A stretch of DNA of 64,000 nt, taken from assembly GCA_010015585.1 (NCBI GenBank), contig ML975162.1; one strand, written 5' to 3'. The position numbers and the translations under genes are program-made. The notes beneath the pieces were generated by a model. It ran no database searches, was not told where the DNA came from, and saw only the letters and a list, made by a program, of their open reading frames with translations. The stretch's first letter is position 1, and the number at the start of each line of letters is the position of its first letter. Positions 5,133 to 11,245 of the stretch are shown here, piece after piece. The DNA comes from Eremomyces bilateralis CBS 781.70 (Eukaryota).

Positions 5133-5659
5133 TGCCTTAGATCCATCAAATCATGATTTATTCTTCACAGTACAGCATGTCACTTAGGAAACTATATCAG
5201 TAATAGAACAGAGTCATATCTCTATTCTATAGATCTTTTCTATGCATCCTCCCTTTAAAGCGCATGTAAAATGAGCCTCTTTTGCTCTTCAAGCCGCTGC
5301 TGGCTTGCTCAGGCATAGCCTCGCTGCTACGCAGAGTACTAGCACCCTCGGTGGGTATCTCTCTAAGCTCCTCATTATCATTGTCAACTGCTGTCCTGCT
5401 TGGTCCTTGTCTTTTCTCCTTTGCCTCTTGTTGCATAGCTGTAAAGTGATTCAGACACGCAATAGTTGTCGGGTGCTGAGAACCGAGCTTCTGCTTGTAG
5501 CCGTTGGATGCTCTCTGGTAGAGCTCGGACGCCTCCTTATATCGGCTGCGCTTGTGTAAAAGATAGGCAAGGCAGTAGACGGAAGTTAGTGTATCAGGAT
5601 GGTCCATTCCAAGCTCCTTCTCCCTCCCTTCCAGCGCTCGCCGGTGAAGCTTCTCCGCC
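5133..5659 (-). repeat. Inverted repeat copy 1 (about 530 bp) of the NLR 3' end and 3' UTR; partner at 10716-11245
   Basis: Reverse complement aligns to 10716-11245. Translations and spot-checked segments are identical in the middle and across the proximal 3' UTR. I see 3 substitutions at the 5' end, 4 clustered near the stop, and small indels at the distal end. Confidence 0.95.
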
Positions 5660-5700
5660 GTCGCTGTTATGAGAGAGTACGCCTGCAGGGTATCGAGATC
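5227..5700 (-). pseudogene. Truncated chimeric NLR relic: winged-helix fragment fused to the last two TPR repeats and C-terminal tail
   Basis: Reads DLDTLQAYSLITAT (compare DFDTLQAYSLVAVT at 9293-9334), then directly AEKLHRRALEGREKELGMDHPDTLTS...HRKDL*. No NB-ARC domain and no credible start codon. Confidence 0.75.
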
Positions 5701-6111
5701 GGACCGGCCGAGGGCGCCAGAAGGAATGAGGACTTGGTAAAGAAAAGGGCTCGCCATCGTGGTTGCACCCCACGACAGCAGCGGTTGGGAAAGACAGTCC
5801 GTTAACATATCAGCCAAAACCGATGGGCGAGGAAGGTAGCTTCCCGAATGTCACGCGCGTACTCCGTAGCGAGACAACAATCCAAACTTAGTGCCAACAG
5901 GGTCTCTCTATGCTTTGGCGTGTCGCGCATGAACCTGAAACTGAGCCATCTGTAGCTTGATCTGGTCGTGCCTGGTGAGCCATGCTGCCTTTAATCGCCA
6001 AGCCAGCGCCGAGGTCGTCGCGTACATGAGGTGCCATAATCACTACTTGCATGATTGAAAAATATATAGAAGAATCATGGAAGTTACCACCTACTACTGG
6101 CCGCACCCTGT

Positions 6112-7569
6112 TCATCCACGGAGATCAAAATTAGCCGTTCCGCCAGTGACTTGAGTTCCAGAAATCATCGTGTGGGCAGAAACGGGACCGTTAAAAACAG
6201 ACCCGATGTTCGCAGCCTCTCCGCGACCGCTCTCATTGACGCTAGCAGGTTGAAGAAGCTGCTGGTGTTGCCTTTTCGCGGCATCCTTCTTTTCCTTCCA
6301 TGAATCTTGACTCTCTTCAACCGTATTATACCAGAGCCAAAGCCGATCATGTACTCGCACATAGCCGGCGTCCATAGAAGTCTTGAACTTTGTCATCCCT
6401 GTGTGGGTTGCATGGATGCCATTGTTTGGATACGCCGTGAGGATCGCTGATTGCTTTGGTACTATCTGCAAGAGCTTAGGACTAGAATTCGGTTGCAGAA
6501 GATATTGGAGGAGTGGCATACCTCGCCGAGCCCAGGGTATCCGACTTCCTCATAAAAGCAAAAGATATTGATATATTTGCTGTCGTTTCTGCTTCGGTCG
6601 TCAAGCATGGTATGGAACTCTTGTTGGACCGCGGCGAGCATCTCAGAGCCTGGCTGCAAGACTCCTACAATCTCGGAGTTGGTTTTGCGCAGCAGATTTG
6701 AAAGTTTCGAGATTGGATGCCCCCAATTTGCAAGATTCGACCCGAGGTGTGGAGTACCCATGAACGCAATCGCTACGGTGCTTTCAAGCAAGTCCTTAGC
6801 ATGCTGTTCAGCCGAGCCGCGTGAGACAAGAAGTGCCTGCACTGGGGTATTAATGAACTGGCGGCTGGTGAATATCTTGGAGGGTGACTCGCCTGCTCAG
6901 CAACCAATCCACCAAGGCTGTGCGCAACGAAGATCAGGGGGCGAAGGTTCTGTTACTTGAGTCAGTGTTTGCTAACGGCCTTCCAACGATATATATCGGC
7001 TACTTCGGCGACAGCTCTTTTCAGCTCTTTTCAGCTCTTTCGACATGCATCACATTCAAAGATCGTAAATGACGGGTATGTGTGCCGGGACGACACTCTT
7101 GCGTTGCTAGAGCTATTGGTTTAATTTGCGCCGCAACGAGTCTTACAGAATCTGTCCTTTTCCTCCGCATAGCCAGATCCTCAGCTAAAGCTTTCCCATG
7201 GTCTCTCAGTGTGCCGTTTCCGGCCGTGCTCAATCCTCGAACGATATCGGCATCGTACCCAAACGTGATGACTCGCGCCTTTGGGAGATCTTTTGCGAGT
7301 AGATCCTTTGGCCAGAACACGTTGGCGGTCCTGTCGGTCCAAGTCGATTCGCGATTGCCGGTTAAACCGTGGACGAAAACGATGCTGGTTTTGCTGGTTG
7401 GCGGAGTTAATGAGGTATGCTAGATCGCTTACTCGATAATATCATCAGCGTTCTCGGATAACGTTTGAAGGCCATATTCTCCAACCGTTGAGAATAGCTC
7501 ATCTGTTGGGGGTTCAGCAAGAGCAGCCTGGGCACCTCCTTTGCCCTTCAACCGCTTCAAGAACTCCAT
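6112..7569 (-). CDS. SesB-like alpha/beta hydrolase (putative lipase/esterase effector) with a C-terminal candidate amyloid signalling motif
   Basis: Five exons (7569-7433, 7384-7147, 6949-6893, 6836-6522, 6465-6112) splice in frame. Motifs: DIVFVHGLTG, FWPKDLL, RVITFGYDA, RPLIFVAHSLGGLV (nucleophile elbow), FMGTPHLGS, CFYE, IVPKQSA, HATHTGMTKF. Tail is GSVFNGPVSAHTMISGTQVTGGTANFDLRG*. Intron 3 uses a GC donor (CAG|GCGAGT). Confidence 0.88.
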
Positions 7570-7729
7570 ATATTGAATGAAACCGGTCGAGACAGCTTGC
7601 AACTTCGTAAATTGCTGAGTTGGAAAGAAGGTAGAGGACAAAATGCAATCATGCTCTCCATCGGAAGCTATGTTCGACGGAGTCAACTCCGCCCCAAAGC
7701 ATGTGGGGCCTTTCACTCCGAGACTCTAG

Positions 7730-7802
7730 CGGCTAGCGGCCAGCGGGGAGCGGGCTACGGCCTACGGGCTGCGGGCCTGCGGAGTGCGGGTGCGCTGTGC
7801 GG
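7730..7802. repeat. Degenerate 7-nt-period CGG array in the divergent hydrolase/NLR promoter
   Basis: CGG starts at 7730, 7737, 7744, 7751, 7758, 7765, 7772, 7780, 7787 and 7800. Confidence 0.7.
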
Positions 7803-8060
7803 CTTCATGGTGCACGCATGGACTATAAACTCGATTGGAGACTGGAGAGCGCTGTAACGACTGGTATCGGGCCGATAATATTCCGGCACAGCCTCAACTT
7901 TGATGAGCTCCGAAGACTGGACTGATAAATGATAAAACGGCGAGGCGCCATACGTAGTACTGTGGGCGTCCGGTCCCTCCTTAACTGCTACTTTGAGTGC
8001 GAATAGATGTCCATAAGAAGCACCTCGCCTGCCTCGTATCTGAGTCATCCGAGTCAAAGC

Positions 8061-11000
8061 ATGCAGCAAACGAGTGAATTTACTGGTGGCATTCATGGTG
8101 ACACCGTCATTGCCGGGACGACCACTGCGGCTGGCGGGACGACGAACTTCATTATTTCAAGTGAGCGCACCATGGGGTTCATGACTGTCTAATATCTATT
8201 ATCTATGCTTAAACCAGCGCACAGACGAGCCGAGCCGAAAACGCAAGCCTTTCTCCGCCGTCCCGTTCGCCCCAGACCCAGACTTCGTCGACCGGCCTGA
8301 TACTCTAGCGTGGATCCACGACAAGTGTGCAAGATCGGGCGCTCGCGCCGCGCTCGTCGGTCTAGGCGGCGTAGGGTATGTCAATGTCCGCTTATTGCGT
8401 TAGCAGGCTAACAGCTGGTAGAAAGTCGCAAATAGCCATCCGATACTGCCACGAGATCCGCGATACATCGCCGCAAACGTCCGTCTACTGGGTGCACGCC
8501 AGCACTAAGGCCCGGTTCGAAGAAGCGTACAGAGACATTGCAGACCGGCTGGAGCTTCCAGGGCGAGAGAATCCGAAGGCCGACATTTTACGGCTGGTCC
8601 GCAACTGGCTGTGCGAGGAGACAAACGGCCAATGGACGATGATCCTGGACAACGTCGATAACCTCGAGACCTTCTTCCCGTCGCGAGACGGTAAGAAAGA
8701 CGAGCCGTCGAGAAGCCCGCCGGCATCGCTGGCGGCTTACCTCCCGCAAAGCCGGAACGGATCGATCCTGATCACTTCTAGGAACAAGGATGCAGCAGCC
8801 AGACTAGCAGGAGGCTACAAGAATATCAAGGAGGTACGGGCAATTAACGAGACCCAAGGCCTACAGCTCCTCCGGAACAAGCTGCAGGACGCGTTAACCG
8901 ACGACGCAATTGATCTGCTATGTGCTCTCGATTATATCCCTCTTGCAATCACCCAGGCCGCTGCATACATCAACCGGCGAGCTCGAATGACGATCTCTAA
9001 GTACCTCGACGAGTTTCGTAGAAACAACAACAAGAGAGAAAATCTCCTAAATTGGGATACAGGCGATATCCGTAGGGACGACAGTGCATCTAACTCGGTA
9101 GTAACGACGTGGCAGATGTCGTTTGAGCGTATTCGTGAAGAAAGGCCTTCTGCTACAGACTTGCTGTCGCTTATGAGCTTCTTTAACCCGCAAGGAATTC
9201 CAGAGTCAATACTTCGAAGGCATAATAGGACAGCCAGTAGGATAGTGGCAAAATCAGGCTGCGAGGACGAGGCTAACAATAAATTCGACGAAGACTTTGA
9301 TACCTTACAAGCTTACTCCCTTGTTGCTGTGACACCCGAGACTGACGCGTGTGAGATGCACGCCCTGGTACAGTTCTGCACACAAGTCTGGCTGTCGTCG
9401 TTTAGCGATGCGGAGTGGTGGAAGCAACAATTCGTACAATTAATGGCACGAGAGCTGCCTACCGGCGAGTTTAAGAACTGGGCGAAGTGCCAGCAACTGC
9501 TTCCGCACGTTGAATCGTTGTATAACGCTGAGCCGGTGACTGACGAGTCCGTAAAGGACTGGGCTCAGATTCTTACAAATGCTGCGTGGTATATGTGGAT
9601 GATAGGGAGGTATAAGACAGGACAAGACATAGCAGCAAAGGCACTTAAGGCTAGAGAAAGAGTGTATGGAGAAGATGATCGATTAACACTAGATAGTGTT
9701 AACCTTCTAGCGTTGGTGCTGAGCTATCAGGGGAAGTACTCGGAGGCAGAGAAGCTTCACCGGAAAGCGCTAGAAGGAAGGGAGAAAGAGCTAGGTGTAC
9801 AGCACCCAGATACGCAGATCAGCATAGGCAATTTGTCTACTGTGCTAGAGCGCCGAGGGAAATTCGAAGAAGCTGAGACTTTGAAACGACGAGTATTGGA
9901 GGCTCATGAGAAGGATTTGGGGCCACGACACCCTCATACANNNNNNNNNNNNNNNNNNNNNNNNNNNNNNNNNNNNNNNNNNNNNNNNNNNNNNNNNNNN
10001 NNNNNNNNNNNNNNNNNNNNNNNNNNNNNNNNNNNNNNNNNNNNNNNNNNNNNNNNNNNNNNNNNNNNNNNNNNNNNNNNNNNNNNNNNNNNNNNNNNNN
10101 NNNNNNNNNNNNNNNNNNNNNNNNNNNNNNNNNNNNNNNNNNNNNNNNNNNNNNNNNNNNNNNNNNNNNNNNNNNNNNNNNNNNNNNNNNNNNNNNNNNN
10201 AAATTCGAAGAAGCTGAGACTTTGAAACGACGAGTATTGGAGGCTCATGAGAAGGATTTGGGGCCACGACACCCTCATACACTGACGAGTATAAGCCTCC
10301 TGGCATCAGTGCTAGCAAGCCGGGGGAAGTACTCGGAGGCGGAGAAGCTGAACCGGCGAGCGGTGGAAGGGATGGAGAAGGAGCTGGGTGTACAGCACCC
10401 AGATACGCTGACGAGCGTGGACAACCTGGCGGGCGCGCTGCAAGGTCAGGGGAAGTACTCGGAGGCGGAGAAGCTTCACCGGAGAGCGCTGGAAGGAAGG
10501 GAGAAAGAGCTGGGTATACAGCACCCAGATACGCAGATCAGCATAGGCAATTTGTCTACTGTGCTAGAGTGCCGAGGGAAATTCGAAGAAGCTGAGATTT
10601 TGAAACGACGACTATTGGAGGCTCATGAGAAGGATTTGGGGCCACGACACCCTCATACACTGACGAGTATAAGCCTCCTGGCATCAGTACTAGCAAGCCA
10701 GGGGAAGTACTCGGAGGCGGAGGGGCTTCACCGGCGAGCGCTGGAAGAGAGGGAGAAGGAGCTTGGAATGGACCATCCTGATACACTAACTTCCGTCTAC
10801 TGCCTTGCCTATCTTTTACACAAGCGCAGCCGATATAAGGAGGCGTCCGAGCTCTACCAGAGAGCATCCAACGGCTACAAGCAGAAGCTCGGTTCTCAGC
10901 ACCCGACAACTATTGCGTGTCTGAATCACTTTACAGCTATGCAACAAGAGGCAAAGGAGAAAAGACAAGGACCAAGCAGGACAGCAGTTGACAATGATAA

Positions 11001-11148
11001 TGAGGAGCTTAGAGAGATACCCACCGAGGGTGCTAGTACTCTGCGTAGCAGCGAGGCTATGCCTGAGCAAGCCAGCAGCGGCTTGAAGAGCAAAAGAGAC
11101 TCAATTTACACGCGCTTGAAAGGGAGGATGCATAGAAAAGATCTATAG
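8061..11148 (+). CDS. Fungal NLR (STAND): N-terminal candidate amyloid motif, NB-ARC-like NTPase, TPR repeats
   Basis: Exons 8061-8160, 8225-8375 and 8422-11148 (spans an N gap). Exon 1 is MQQTSEFTGGIHGDTVIAGTTTAAGGTTNFIIS. Exon 2 has VPFAPDPDFVDR. Walker A GLGGVGKSQ is split by intron 2. Also Walker B WTMILDNVD, GSILITSR, PLAITQAAAYI, MHALVQ, then 42-aa kinesin-light-chain-type TPRs (LG..HPDTL.S..NLA). Confidence 0.93.
9734..10932 (+). repeat. 126-nt (42-aa) TPR tandem array with high internal conservation
   Basis: Units start at 9734, 9860, [gap], 10201, 10327, 10453, 10579, 10705 and 10831. Near-identical units recur 378 nt apart (10201 vs 10579). Confidence 0.9.
9941..10200. other. Assembly gap (260 N) inside the TPR array
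   Basis: Run of N flanked by an identical 81-mer on both sides (9860-9940 = 10201-10281). Confidence 0.99.
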
Positions 11149-11245
11149 AATAGAGATATGACTCTGTTCTATTACTGATATAGTTTCCTAAGTGACATGC
11201 TGTACTGTGAAGAATAAATCATATGATTTGGATGGGTCTAAGGCA
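10716..11245 (+). repeat. Inverted repeat copy 2 (NLR 3' end plus 3' UTR)
   Basis: Matches the reverse complement of 5133-5659. Confidence 0.95.

What the first reader, a model, noticed from the sequence alone, without database searches (positions are those of the whole stretch)
6112..11148. Head-to-head NLR and SesB-like hydrolase share a candidate amyloid signalling motif of unfamiliar type
Seen: the NLR N-terminus SEFTGGIHGDTVIAGTTTAAGGTTNF (exon 1, 8061-8160) aligns with the hydrolase C-terminus SVFNGPVSAHTMISGTQVT-GGTANF (about 6121-6204, minus strand). There are 12 identities over 26 columns, plus I/V, V/M and A/S matches. The two ATGs are 491 nt apart on opposite strands, and the NLR has no other N-terminal effector domain. 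Established: fungal NLRs activate adjacently encoded effectors by templating a shared amyloid motif, N-terminal in the receptor and C-terminal in the effector. Examples are NWD2/HET-S, PNT1/HELLP with the PP motif, and the sigma cluster with SesA/SesB. Inference: this is such a pair, and its output is an enzyme (putative lipase/esterase) rather than a HeLo-type pore former. The consensus F-x-G-x-[IV]-x4-[VM]-I-x-G-x4/5-GGT-x-NF does not resemble the HET-s/HRAM, PP (G.Q.G core), sigma or PUASM motifs as I recall them, so it may be an uncharacterised family. I cannot exclude that it is already in published motif catalogues.
Basis: partly seen in the sequence, partly recalled or inferred. Interest (0 to 1): 0.92.

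Follow-up and report, generated by a model that had tools for sequence, protein, structure and literature searches.

The report
New shared tag links fungal sensor and enzyme
A fungal immune-type sensor gene and the neighbouring hydrolase gene carry the same short tail motif, conserved in many fungi and on three kinds of enzyme, which fits the known prion-like "amyloid signalling" wiring but uses a motif that the published catalogues I could check do not list.

Summary
The window matches Eremomyces bilateralis: its hydrolase is 100% identical to a named protein of that species. It carries a divergent pair of genes. One is a DUF676/SesB-like hydrolase (6112-7569, minus strand). The other is an NB-ARC/TPR NLR (8061-11148, plus strand).

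The two peptides alone are not significant by BLASTP (E 0.94). A profile built only from 39 NLR N-termini of other fungi settles it. Among 1835 window ORFs it finds just NLR exon 1 (E 1e-9) and the hydrolase tail (E 3e-5).

RNA contigs confirm all four hydrolase introns and the splicing of NLR exon 1 to the NB-ARC exons.

The same hydrolase and NLR sit under consecutive accessions in Talaromyces amestolkiae and Tricladium. A PNP_UDP enzyme and an NLR do so in Zalerion. A HET-domain protein of Bipolaris carries the motif beside an NLR.

Of 82 single-stretch matches in 1.8 billion proteins, 79 lie at a protein end.

Pfam's sigma, PP and HET-s models do not match. Three family members in the 2022 catalogue are labelled "noasm".

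Enzyme effectors are already known, so only the motif family looks new. I could not rule out identity with the catalogue's NLR12, NLR34 or PF01048_015 motifs, and amyloid formation is untested.

The parts
6112..7569 (-). Gene for a DUF676/SesB-like alpha/beta hydrolase. Exons are 7569-7433, 7384-7147, 6949-6893, 6836-6522 and 6465-6112 (stop included), giving 366 aa by the RNA-supported splicing.
   Evidence: The last exon is 100% identical to P0001 (E. bilateralis, 372 aa). Pfam gives DUF676 E 4.7e-8, Abhydrolase_6 and PGAP1. RNA contigs join 7433|7384, 7147|6949, 6893|6836 (GC-AG) and 6522|6465.
6127..6201 (-). Effector-side motif SVFNGPVSAHTMISGTQVTGGTANF. Four more residues (DLRG) and the stop follow it.
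   Evidence: It scores 20.8 bits (E 2.7e-5) against the HMM built from NLR N-termini only. It aligns with 15 other effector tails.
6202..6321 (-). Polar, charged linker of about 40 residues between the hydrolase fold and the motif.
   Evidence: Translation. This stretch has no similarity in the 43%-identical hydrolase P0279, whereas the motif is kept.
6917..6919 (-). Codon of the putative nucleophile serine in AHSLGG (GxSxG-type elbow).
   Evidence: Read from the sequence. The same FxAHSLGGLV stretch is present in P0279. The catalytic role is inferred.
7570..8060 (.). Divergent intergenic region shared by the two genes (491 nt).
   Evidence: Coordinates of the two ATGs. No promoter test was made.
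8061..8160 (+). NLR exon 1. An alternative in-frame start lies at 8007.
   Evidence: ORF. Contigs that end at 8160 run on with ACGAGCCGAGCCGA, which is the sequence at 8225-8238 (table 7). Paralogue P0141 is annotated with the same junction and the upstream start.
8073..8150 (+). NLR-side motif SEFTGGIHGDTVIAGTTTAAGGTTNF.
   Evidence: It scores 34.6 bits (E 1.2e-9) against the HMM built from other fungi.
8225..8375 (+). NLR exon 2, with the first part of Walker A (GLGGVG, 8359-8375).
   Evidence: An RNA contig starts at 8225 and joins 8374/8375 to 8421/8422.
8422..9940 (+). NLR exon 3 up to the assembly gap. It holds the end of the Walker A motif (KS), NB-ARC, DUF7779 and the first TPR units.
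   Evidence: Pfam gives TPR_10 2e-24, TPR_12 and DUF7779 3e-11. NB-ARC is weak on this piece (E 0.18) but significant in the orthologues P0013 and P0135.
9941..10200 (.). Run of N (assembly gap) inside the 126-nt TPR repeat array.
10201..11148 (+). [quoted passage not shown]
   Evidence: Pfam gives TPR_12 9e-64 and TPR_10 1e-51.

Best explanation
This is a two-gene NLR and effector module of the amyloid-signalling kind.

The proposed mechanism has three steps.
1. The NB-ARC/TPR receptor oligomerises when its TPR array meets a ligand.
2. That brings its short N-terminal motifs together, and they fold into a cross-beta nucleus.
3. The nucleus templates the single matching motif at the end of a flexible tail on the DUF676/SesB-like hydrolase. 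This clusters or activates the enzyme as a cell-death or defence output.

The motif is about 28 residues long. On the NLR side it reads roughly S-x-F-[HNQ]-G-x-I-x-G-x-x-V-I-[AP]-G-x-H-x-x-x-G-G-T-x-N-F-N-F. On the effector side it reads G-P-V-F-N-G-P-I-S-G-x-x-V-I-x-G-T-[QH]-V-T-G-G-T-x-N-F-N-F, with a loop one residue shorter. It forms a family of its own, spread over several classes of Pezizomycotina. It behaves as a module: it occurs on NB-ARC and NACHT receptors and on DUF676, PNP_UDP and HET effectors.

Shown here: gene structures and splicing, expression of both genes, membership of both peptides in one motif family, terminal placement, recurrence in neighbouring genes of other fungi, and no match to the sigma, PP and HET-s models.

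Inferred: amyloid or prion templating, activation of the hydrolase, and the biological role.
For: - **Family membership.** The NLR-only HMM picks out exactly the two peptides in the window. Among 250 stored proteins the scores fall into two groups: 48 score 19 bits or more and the next best scores 3.6 bits. Of the 48, 41 were in the training set and so match by construction. The independent ones are the five hydrolases P0001-P0005, the paralogue P0141, and P0052.
- **Spread among NLRs.** Of 58 NLR homologues with a short N-terminus, 36 match a loose pattern and 6 more are members by eye. About a dozen of the rest carry PP-like GLQVG motifs instead.
- **Neighbouring pairs elsewhere.** In T. amestolkiae the hydrolase is RAO73451 and the NLR is RAO73452 (locus tags BHQ10_009463 and 009464). 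In Tricladium they are KAH8683389 and KAH8683388. In Zalerion a PNP_UDP protein is KAJ2897763 and the NLR is KAJ2897764. The Bipolaris HET protein EUC38494 is listed as a neighbour of NLR EUC38493 (S4 Table of PMC9815663; HET domain E 8e-13).
- **Terminal placement.** The profile search of 1.84 billion proteins gave 91 hits at E 0.001 or better. Of these, 47 are N-terminal, 12 are internal with a Met at the motif start, 20 are C-terminal, 3 are otherwise internal, and 9 are unrelated repeat proteins.
- **Effector types.** C-terminal carriers have DUF676, HET or PNP_UDP domains, and one N-terminal carrier is a NACHT protein.
- **Motif kept when its surroundings diverge.** P0279 is 43% identical to the window hydrolase. 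Its linker is unrelated, but the motif is kept.
- **Partners resemble each other.** Cognate pairs are more alike than shuffled pairs: only 1 of 24 permutations reaches the observed sum. The variable residue before the V-I core is the same in both partners in 4 of 4 pairs (T/T, N/N, N/N, Y/Y).
- **Composition.** The motif is rich in G, N, T, V, I and F and poor in K, L, D and E, much as published for signalling amyloids (bioRxiv 10.1101/2020.01.06.895854, passages).
- **Expression.** Spliced RNA contigs cover both genes.
Against: - No tool here can show amyloid formation.
- The two window peptides alone are not significantly similar.
- The E. bilateralis copies are the weakest members. The hydrolase tail scores 19-21 bits against 25-38 bits in the other hydrolases. 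Both partners have lost the second N-F.
- Effector-side motifs resemble each other across species more than they resemble their own NLR partner. This differs from the clustering by locus reported for sigma (PMC3321046, passages).
- The permutation test has only four pairs, two of them closely related, so its floor is 1/24.
- Adjacency in other fungi rests on consecutive accession numbers, locus tags and equal contig lengths, not on DNA that I read. Gene orientation there is unknown.
- The NLR is interrupted by an assembly gap, so its integrity cannot be verified.
Confidence: 0.72

Rival explanations
1. The mechanism is the same, but the motif is a diverged member of a family already catalogued. 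Candidates are the PNP_UDP-linked motif PF01048_015, the HRAM3-like NLR12 or the unassigned NLR34 of Wojciechowski et al. 2022, or a derivative of the sigma B sub-motif.
For: - The family also occurs on PNP_UDP effectors and NACHT NLRs, as PF01048_015 and NLR12 do (PMC9815663, sections 19 and 24).
- PF01048_015 sits at NLR residues 8-28 and at the very end of PNP_UDP proteins in Fusarium, Verticillium and Torrubiella (S5 Table, part 1 of 3). That placement matches this family.
- Some NB-ARC/TPR Fusarium proteins carry partial NLR12 hits.
- The GGT-x-N-F-N ending resembles the sigma sub-motif B, GGTQNINT (PMC3321046, passages).
Against: - All 3 family members that I could find in the catalogue's S1 Table (OWY45267, RAO73452, RFU31458) are labelled 'noasm' and 'not-clustered'.
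- Neither the T. amestolkiae pair nor the Bipolaris HET/NLR pair is in the pair tables. No HET (PF06985) entry occurs in them either.
- Pfam PF17106, PF17046 and PF11558 appear in none of the motif bearers' domain lists, yet they do appear on the control NLRs P0067, P0036 and P0107.
- The family HMM gives sigma-bearing P0067 -2.1 bits and PP-bearing P0107 -2.8 bits.
- The HRAM rules given in the text (G at 19; hydrophobic at 5, 8, 10, 16 and 18; R/K at 15; PMC4518210, passages) fit in no ungapped register that I tried by hand.
- The profile finds no HET-s, HELLF or RHIM chain in the PDB at E 10 or better.
Confidence: 0.35
2. The shared motif is a docking tag that does not form amyloid. The effector tail would bind the oligomerised NLR N-termini one-to-one, for example by strand addition, with no self-propagating fold.
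For: There is one copy on each side. The motif contains prolines and a conserved His. The effector-side sequence is nearly constant across effector types, as expected for a fixed binding interface.
Against: The composition, the glycine spacing, the terminal placement on flexible tails and the modular spread over unrelated effectors match what is published for signalling amyloids (PMC9815663, sections 19 and 24; bioRxiv 10.1101/2020.01.06.895854, passages). I found no example of a non-amyloid tag with this layout in fungal NLR systems in the papers I read.
Confidence: 0.12
3. The resemblance in this window is a chance or compositional match, or a relic with no function in E. bilateralis.
For: BLASTP E 0.94 for the two peptides. 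The E. bilateralis versions are the most divergent in the family.
Against: The independent profile gives E 2.7e-5 and 1.2e-9, with nothing else in 64 kb. Both genes are transcribed and correctly spliced. A second organism keeps the same divergent tail variant...AQKMMAGTQVNGGTANFDFRG (P0324). The paralogue P0141 keeps the same NLR variant.
Confidence: 0.04

Closest known systems
Sigma-motif cluster SesA / SesB / HET-eN of Nectria haematococca and its homologues
   Same: An NLR without an effector domain sits next to a SesB-type alpha/beta hydrolase. The same G/N/aromatic-rich motif lies at the NLR N-terminus and the enzyme C-terminus. The ending GGT-x-N-[FI]-N recalls sigma sub-motif B (PMC3321046, passages).
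   Different: Sigma is about 40 residues long and is built from three repeats of the sub-motifs GxGxQFNxx and GGTQNINT. This motif is about 28 residues, is not repeated, and has a V-I-x-G core and almost no Q. Pfam NACHT_sigma (PF17106) does not match it, and the family HMM does not match a sigma-bearing NLR.
PP motif module PNT1 / HELLP / SBP of Chaetomium globosum
   Same: A single short motif links an NB-ARC/TPR NLR to a SesB-like lipase (SBP) (PMC5485727, passages). PP-bearing NLRs are close NB-ARC/TPR relatives of this one.
   Different: There is no pseudo-palindrome and no G-hydrophobic-Q-hydrophobic-G core. Pfam PF17046, which is in fact the PP model (PMC12261475, section 12), gives no hit.
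HET-s / NWD2 and the HRAM families
   Same: This is the paradigm for NLR-to-effector templating. It has an R/H-x-V-I-x-G stretch and glycines at the turns.
   Different: HRAM effectors carry two 21-residue repeats and are HeLo-type. The positional rules for HRAM are not met. There is no Pfam HET-s hit and no PDB HET-s or HELLF hit.
PUASM, PF01048_015 and NLR12 of Wojciechowski et al. 2022
   Same: These are single-copy motifs on PNP_UDP enzymes and on NACHT or NB-ARC NLRs of Pezizomycotina. PF01048_015 and NLR12 occupy the same positions in the proteins.
   Different: The PUASM pattern FxGxGxQxxGxGxF is not met. For PF01048_015 and NLR12 I could read only ids and coordinates, not sequences. 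Neither is reported with DUF676 or HET effectors, and the three members I could trace are 'noasm'.
Bacterial amyloid signalling sequences (BASS1-10) and the 'GDQN' motif of Fusarium oxysporum (2025)
   Same: The layout and composition bias are the same. GDQN shows that new fungal families are still being added one pair at a time (PMC12261475, section 12).
   Different: The hosts and effectors differ. The GDQN pattern NxxxGxQYxxxGxGDQNxVSxxxxQxN is unrelated.

Membership tests
Fungal NLR/effector amyloid-signalling gene pair (functional class) | An NLR with a short N-terminal extension in place of an effector domain | tested here: met
   Walker A lies about 80 residues from the start, and there is no Pfam domain before it.
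Fungal NLR/effector amyloid-signalling gene pair (functional class) | The same motif at the C-terminus of a protein encoded by a neighbouring gene | tested here: met
   The HMM from NLRs alone hits the hydrolase tail at E 2.7e-5. The genes are 491 nt apart and divergent.
Fungal NLR/effector amyloid-signalling gene pair (functional class) | Recurrence of the pairing in other genomes, and modular use with other effector and NOD domains | tested here: met
   Three further pairs by consecutive accessions, plus one HET/NLR neighbour. Carriers have DUF676, PNP_UDP, HET, NB-ARC and NACHT domains. The DNA of those loci was not read.
Fungal NLR/effector amyloid-signalling gene pair (functional class) | The motif forms amyloid, propagates as a prion, and the NLR side converts the effector side | not testable with these tools
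   This needs peptides, ThT/EM/ssNMR and Podospora reporter strains.
Sigma motif (Pfam NACHT_sigma PF17106) | Three repeats of the sub-motifs GxGxQFNxx and/or GGTQNINT, about 40 aa; match to PF17106 | tested here: not met
   Only one GGT-x-N-F-N element is present. There is no PF17106 hit at E 10 or better, and none in the motif bearers' precomputed domain lists.
PP motif (Pfam PF17046) | A pseudo-palindrome centred on Q, with an NxGxQxG core | tested here: not met
   There is no such core and no PF17046 hit.
HRAM / HET-s motif | A 21-aa unit with G at 19, hydrophobic residues at 5, 8, 10, 16 and 18, R/K at 15 and N/Q/H at 3; two copies on the effector | tested here: not met
   No ungapped register fits (checked by hand). 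The effector has a single copy. There is no PF11558 hit, and no HET-s or HELLF chain in the PDB profile search.
PUASM | The pattern FxGxGxQxxGxGxF, exclusive to PNP_UDP | tested here: not met
   The pattern is absent from both alignments. The effector here is DUF676.
PF01048_015 / NLR12 / NLR34 of PMC9815663 | A match to the authors' profile HMMs (S7 and S13 Data) | not testable with these tools
   The HMM and FASTA supplements could not be read here. The only indirect evidence is that 3 of 3 traced members are 'noasm'.
SesB-like / DUF676 alpha/beta hydrolase | A match to DUF676, PGAP1 or Abhydrolase_6, and a GxSxG-type nucleophile elbow | tested here: met
   DUF676 E 4.7e-8, Abhydrolase_6 2.4e-6, PGAP1 3.6e-3. 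AHSLGG is present. The fold model failed, so the catalytic triad geometry is untested.
NB-ARC/TPR fungal NLR | Walker A, an NB-ARC module with a winged-helix part, and a TPR_10/12 array | tested here: met
   GLGGVGKS is present. DUF7779 3e-11, TPR_10 and TPR_12 hits. NB-ARC is significant in orthologues. The array is interrupted by an assembly gap.

The most novel reading that the evidence does not exclude
This is a previously uncatalogued amyloid-signalling motif family found across Pezizomycotina. It has a single copy on both partners, and the two sides differ by one residue in loop length. It connects NB-ARC and NACHT receptors to three different enzymatic effectors. One of these is a free-standing HET-domain protein, which would be the first HET effector controlled in trans through a signalling motif.
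Probability: 0.38. Interest if true: 0.62.

Novelty: new variant of a known kind. Interest (0 to 1): 0.5.

Why it matters
Fungal NLRs number in the hundreds per genome. About a third have short, unannotated N-termini. The 2025 paper I read counts four or five fungal signalling-motif families.

A further family with dozens of members in Dothideomycetes, Sordariomycetes, Leotiomycetes, Eurotiomycetes and Geoglossomycetes would do three things:
- annotate a block of "noasm" receptors;
- add HET-domain and DUF676 enzymes to its outputs;
- provide a new sequence for studying how specificity between parallel amyloid pathways is kept.

It does not change the concept. It extends the parts list.

Tried and rejected
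- **Pfam scan of gene pieces and the two peptides**. No signalling-motif family matched. The hydrolase exons taken singly gave nothing, and only the full-length protein matched DUF676.
- **Whole-genome file.** None is held for this window, so I could not scan the genome for further motif copies.
- **AlphaFold2 model of the hydrolase** from a five-sequence alignment. Mean pLDDT was 32, so it was unusable and no fold search was made.
- **Complex prediction** with two NLR peptides and the hydrolase tail. The verdict was 'no answer' (score 0.02), and the alignments were not used by the tool. This is no evidence either way.
- **Sequencing runs.** No RNA holder was listed as such. The single run X1, labelled only as a guess, proved to hold spliced contigs. 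Contigs give no expression levels. The bins without cover (7642-7909) are not used as evidence.
- **Attempts to see the NLR12, NLR34 and PF01048_015 sequences.** The cluster alignments (S2 Data) are stored cut and hold none of the ids I searched. The HMM and FASTA supplements are unreadable here. Files 9 and 10 could not be searched. PMC12261475 has no readable supplement.
- **String searches** for GGTANF, GGTTNF and GTQVTGG in the supplements found nothing. This is weak evidence, because alignments contain gaps and files are cut.
- **Earlier notes of this scan** held only bacterial cases and nothing on this genome.
- **Literature searches** turned up no paper describing this motif. They cover only the held open-access library.

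Full report
**What is in the window.**

The last exon of the minus-strand gene is 100% identical to a 372-aa protein of Eremomyces bilateralis CBS 781.70 (P0001, KAF1811247). This species is a dothideomycete. The window therefore matches that fungus.

Between 6112 and 11148 lie two divergently transcribed genes. Their start codons are 491 nt apart (7569 on the minus strand, 8061 on the plus strand).

The minus-strand gene encodes a DUF676/SesB-like alpha/beta hydrolase. Pfam gives DUF676 E 4.7e-8, Abhydrolase_6 and PGAP1. These are the same Pfam families that label the SesB-type effectors in the published pair tables (PMC9815663, S5 Table part 1).

The plus-strand gene encodes an NB-ARC/TPR NLR. 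It has a GLGGVGKS Walker A motif, a DUF7779 domain and TPR_10/TPR_12 arrays. No domain lies ahead of the nucleotide-binding module.

**Gene models and expression.**

One public run (X1) holds contigs that skip introns, so it is RNA.

For the hydrolase the contigs join 7433|7384, 7147|6949, 6893|6836 and 6522|6465. The third intron can only be read as GC-AG within the 6-nt ambiguity of the joint.

The RNA-supported product has 366 aa. It reads ...DDIIDIVFVHG... and ...LVAEQALLVS..., as the orthologues do. The public model P0001 carries three extra residues at each of these two junctions.

For the NLR the contigs join 8375|8422. One contig starts exactly at 8225. Two contigs that end at 8160 run on with ACGAGCCGAGCCGA, the sequence at 8225-8238. 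This gives ...NFIIS-N-EPSRKRK... in frame.

The paralogue P0141 of the same fungus is annotated with the same junction and with the upstream start that corresponds to 8007.

**Is the shared motif more than chance?**

Taken alone, it is not. BLASTP of the two peptides gives E 0.94.

I therefore looked at relatives. Searches with the NB-ARC exon returned 240 NLR homologues. Of the 58 with a Met start and a short N-terminus, 36 match a loose pattern of the motif and 6 more are members by eye. About a dozen of the rest carry PP-like GLQVG motifs instead.

I built an HMM from 39 distinct N-termini, leaving out E. bilateralis and all hydrolases. I ran it over the 1835 six-frame ORFs of the window and five hydrolases.
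- NLR exon 1 scored 34.6 bits (E 1.2e-9).
- The hydrolase tail scored 20.8 bits (E 2.7e-5).
- The next best window ORF had E 0.95.
- The hydrolases of other fungi scored 25-38 bits.

Among 250 stored proteins the scores fall into two groups: 48 score 19 bits or more, and the next best scores 3.6 bits. Of the 48, 41 were in the training set and match by construction. The independent hits are P0001-P0005, P0141 and P0052.

**Conservation of the pairing.**

The hydrolase has orthologues 81-84% identical, all ending in the motif. They come from Talaromyces amestolkiae, a Phaeosphaeriaceae species and Tricladium varicosporioides.

In T. amestolkiae the hydrolase and a motif-bearing NLR have consecutive locus tags and accessions (BHQ10_009463/009464, RAO73451/RAO73452). 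In Tricladium they are KAH8683389 and KAH8683388, on a contig of the same length.

In Zalerion maritima a PNP_UDP protein with the motif at its end (KAJ2897763) precedes a motif-bearing NB-ARC protein (KAJ2897764).

A HET-domain protein of Bipolaris zeicola carries the motif near its C-terminus (EUC38494; HET E 8e-13). It is listed as a genomic neighbour of the short-N-terminus NLR EUC38493 (S4 Table of PMC9815663).

I did not read the DNA of these loci. Adjacency there is inferred, and orientation is unknown.

**Distribution.**

A profile of 29 motif instances was searched against 1.84 billion proteins. It gave 91 hits at E 0.001 or better:

| Placement of the match | Hits |
|---|---|
| At the N-terminus | 47 |
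| Internal, with a Met at the motif start (probably over-extended gene calls) | 12 |
| At the C-terminus | 20 |
| Otherwise internal | 3 |
| Unrelated repeat proteins | 9 |

(Counts.)

Carriers with enough sequence to annotate are DUF676 (P0279), HET (P0280), PNP_UDP (P0315, P0293), NACHT (P0294) and NB-ARC (P0312) proteins.

P0279 is only 43% identical to the window hydrolase. Its linker is unrelated, but the motif is kept.

**Anatomy of the motif.**

On the NLR side the consensus is S-x-F-[HNQ]-G-x-I-[DS]-G-[HRQ]-x-V-I-[AP]-G-[TP]-H-x-x-x-G-G-T-[TM]-N-F-N-F-G.

On the effector side it is G-P-V-F-N-G-P-I-S-G-[RQ]-[NY]-V-I-[PS]-G-T-[QH]-V-T-G-G-T-[AV]-N-F-N-F, with one residue fewer before the G-G.

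There is one copy on each partner. Glycine makes up 17-19% of residues. N, T, V, I and F are common, and K, L, D and E are rare. This is close to the bias reported for signalling amyloids (bioRxiv 10.1101/2020.01.06.895854, passages).

In four pairs the cognate partners share more identities than any of the 23 other pairings. The residue before the V-I core is the same in both partners each time.

With four pairs, two of them related, this is only a hint. Effector-side motifs are more alike across species than partners are within a pair.

**Comparison with known families.**

*The system kind is known.* NLRs that lack an effector domain signal to adjacent HeLo, SesA, SesB-lipase or PNP_UDP proteins through shared terminal motifs (PMC3321046 and PMC5485727, passages; PMC9815663, sections 19 and 24).

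*The motif itself fails every test I could make against named families.*
- **Sigma.** Sigma has three repeats of GxGxQFNxx and/or GGTQNINT over about 40 aa. This motif has one GGT-x-N-F-N element only.
- **PP.** The G-hydrophobic-Q-hydrophobic-G core is absent.
- **PUASM.** The pattern FxGxGxQxxGxGxF is absent.
- **HRAM.** The positional rules (PMC4518210, passages) fit in no ungapped register.
- **Pfam.** PF17106, PF17046 and PF11558 are absent from all motif bearers, while present on the control NLRs P0067, P0036 and P0107 in the same result lists.
- **Solved structures.** The profile finds no solved signalling-amyloid chain at E 10 or better.

*The largest published catalogue does not list it where I could check.* Three family members are present in its S1 Table and are labelled 'noasm' (OWY45267, RAO73452, RFU31458). 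The T. amestolkiae and Bipolaris pairs are absent from its pair tables. No HET-associated motif pair occurs there, although HET and DUF676 effectors were part of that search.

Later papers that I read in passages use that catalogue (PMC12258605, PMC12881547). One adds a single new pair motif, GDQN (PMC12261475, section 12).

**What stays open.**

I could not see the sequences or logos of three catalogue motifs:
- NLR12, which is HRAM3-like and linked to PNP_UDP;
- NLR34, which is unassigned;
- PF01048_015, found in eight PNP_UDP/NLR pairs in Fusarium, Verticillium and Torrubiella.

All three occupy the same protein positions as this family. The sordariomycete, PNP_UDP-linked branch of the present family may coincide with one of them. 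I put that at about one in three.

Even then, three things would be additions: the DUF676 and HET associations, the spread over five classes, and the unified profile.

Amyloid formation, conversion of the hydrolase tail and activation of the enzyme are inferences from the layout. The NLR contains an assembly gap (9941-10200), so its integrity is unverified. No 100% match to it appeared in the searches of either length band. It therefore seems to be missing from the public protein set.

**Verdict.**

This is a real, expressed NLR and SesB-like hydrolase pair of the amyloid-signalling kind. Its motif family is widespread and modular. As far as I could check, it is not catalogued.

It is a new variant of a known kind, of solid interest to specialists, and not a new principle.

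Noticed in passing
window 5153-5850 (minus) and 10716-11222: A 507-nt inverted repeat, 99% identical, duplicates the NLR's 3' end and the start of its 3' flank just downstream of the hydrolase. The minus-strand ORF 5227-5850 reads like a deletion remnant of the NLR: a piece of the winged-helix region fused to the last TPR unit and the C-terminus. One RNA contig joins 5900 to about 9745 on opposite strands, so the remnant may be transcribed, or the assembly may be wrong here.
   Followed up: partly
window 9941-10200: An assembly gap lies inside the 126-nt TPR repeat array. The reading frames on its two sides differ. Neither length band of the protein search held a 100% match to this NLR, so it appears to be unannotated in public records.
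   Followed up: partly
window 6837-6892 and 7385-7432 (minus): The third hydrolase intron is GC-AG. RNA contigs support splice sites that differ from the public model P0001 at two junctions. The public model has extra KTS and AMQ residues that are absent from the orthologues.
   Followed up: yes
window 6950-7146 (minus): Two joints share the acceptor at 6949. One skips 197 nt and the other only 54 nt (donor at 7003). This suggests an alternative or partly retained form of intron 2. The intron also holds a threefold AAAGAGCTG repeat at about 7011-7040.
   Followed up: no
P0001-P0005 against P0013 and P0135: The hydrolase orthologues from Dothideomycetes, Eurotiomycetes and Leotiomycetes are 81-84% identical. 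The neighbouring NLRs are only 62-65% identical over the NB-ARC exon. Such high identity across classes for an accessory enzyme may point to horizontal spread of the cluster.
   Followed up: no
P0052 (Dactylonectria estremocensis, 1201 aa), residues 363-387: One protein model has PNP_UDP, then the motif, then NB-ARC/TPR in a single chain. This is either a true fusion of effector and receptor or a merged model of two adjacent genes.
   Followed up: partly
P0141 and P0147 (E. bilateralis, another contig): Two adjacent paralogous NLRs (KAF1812000 and KAF1812001) are 80% and 78% identical to the window NLR. P0141 carries nearly the same N-terminal motif. Only one motif-bearing hydrolase of this fungus was found, so several receptors may feed one effector.
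   Followed up: partly
P0261, P0295, P0297, P0319, P0330, P0331, P0334, P0336, P0341: Nine hits of the motif profile are long proteins with several weak matches to the V-I-x-G part, apparently repeat proteins of bacteria. I treated them as unrelated.
   Followed up: no
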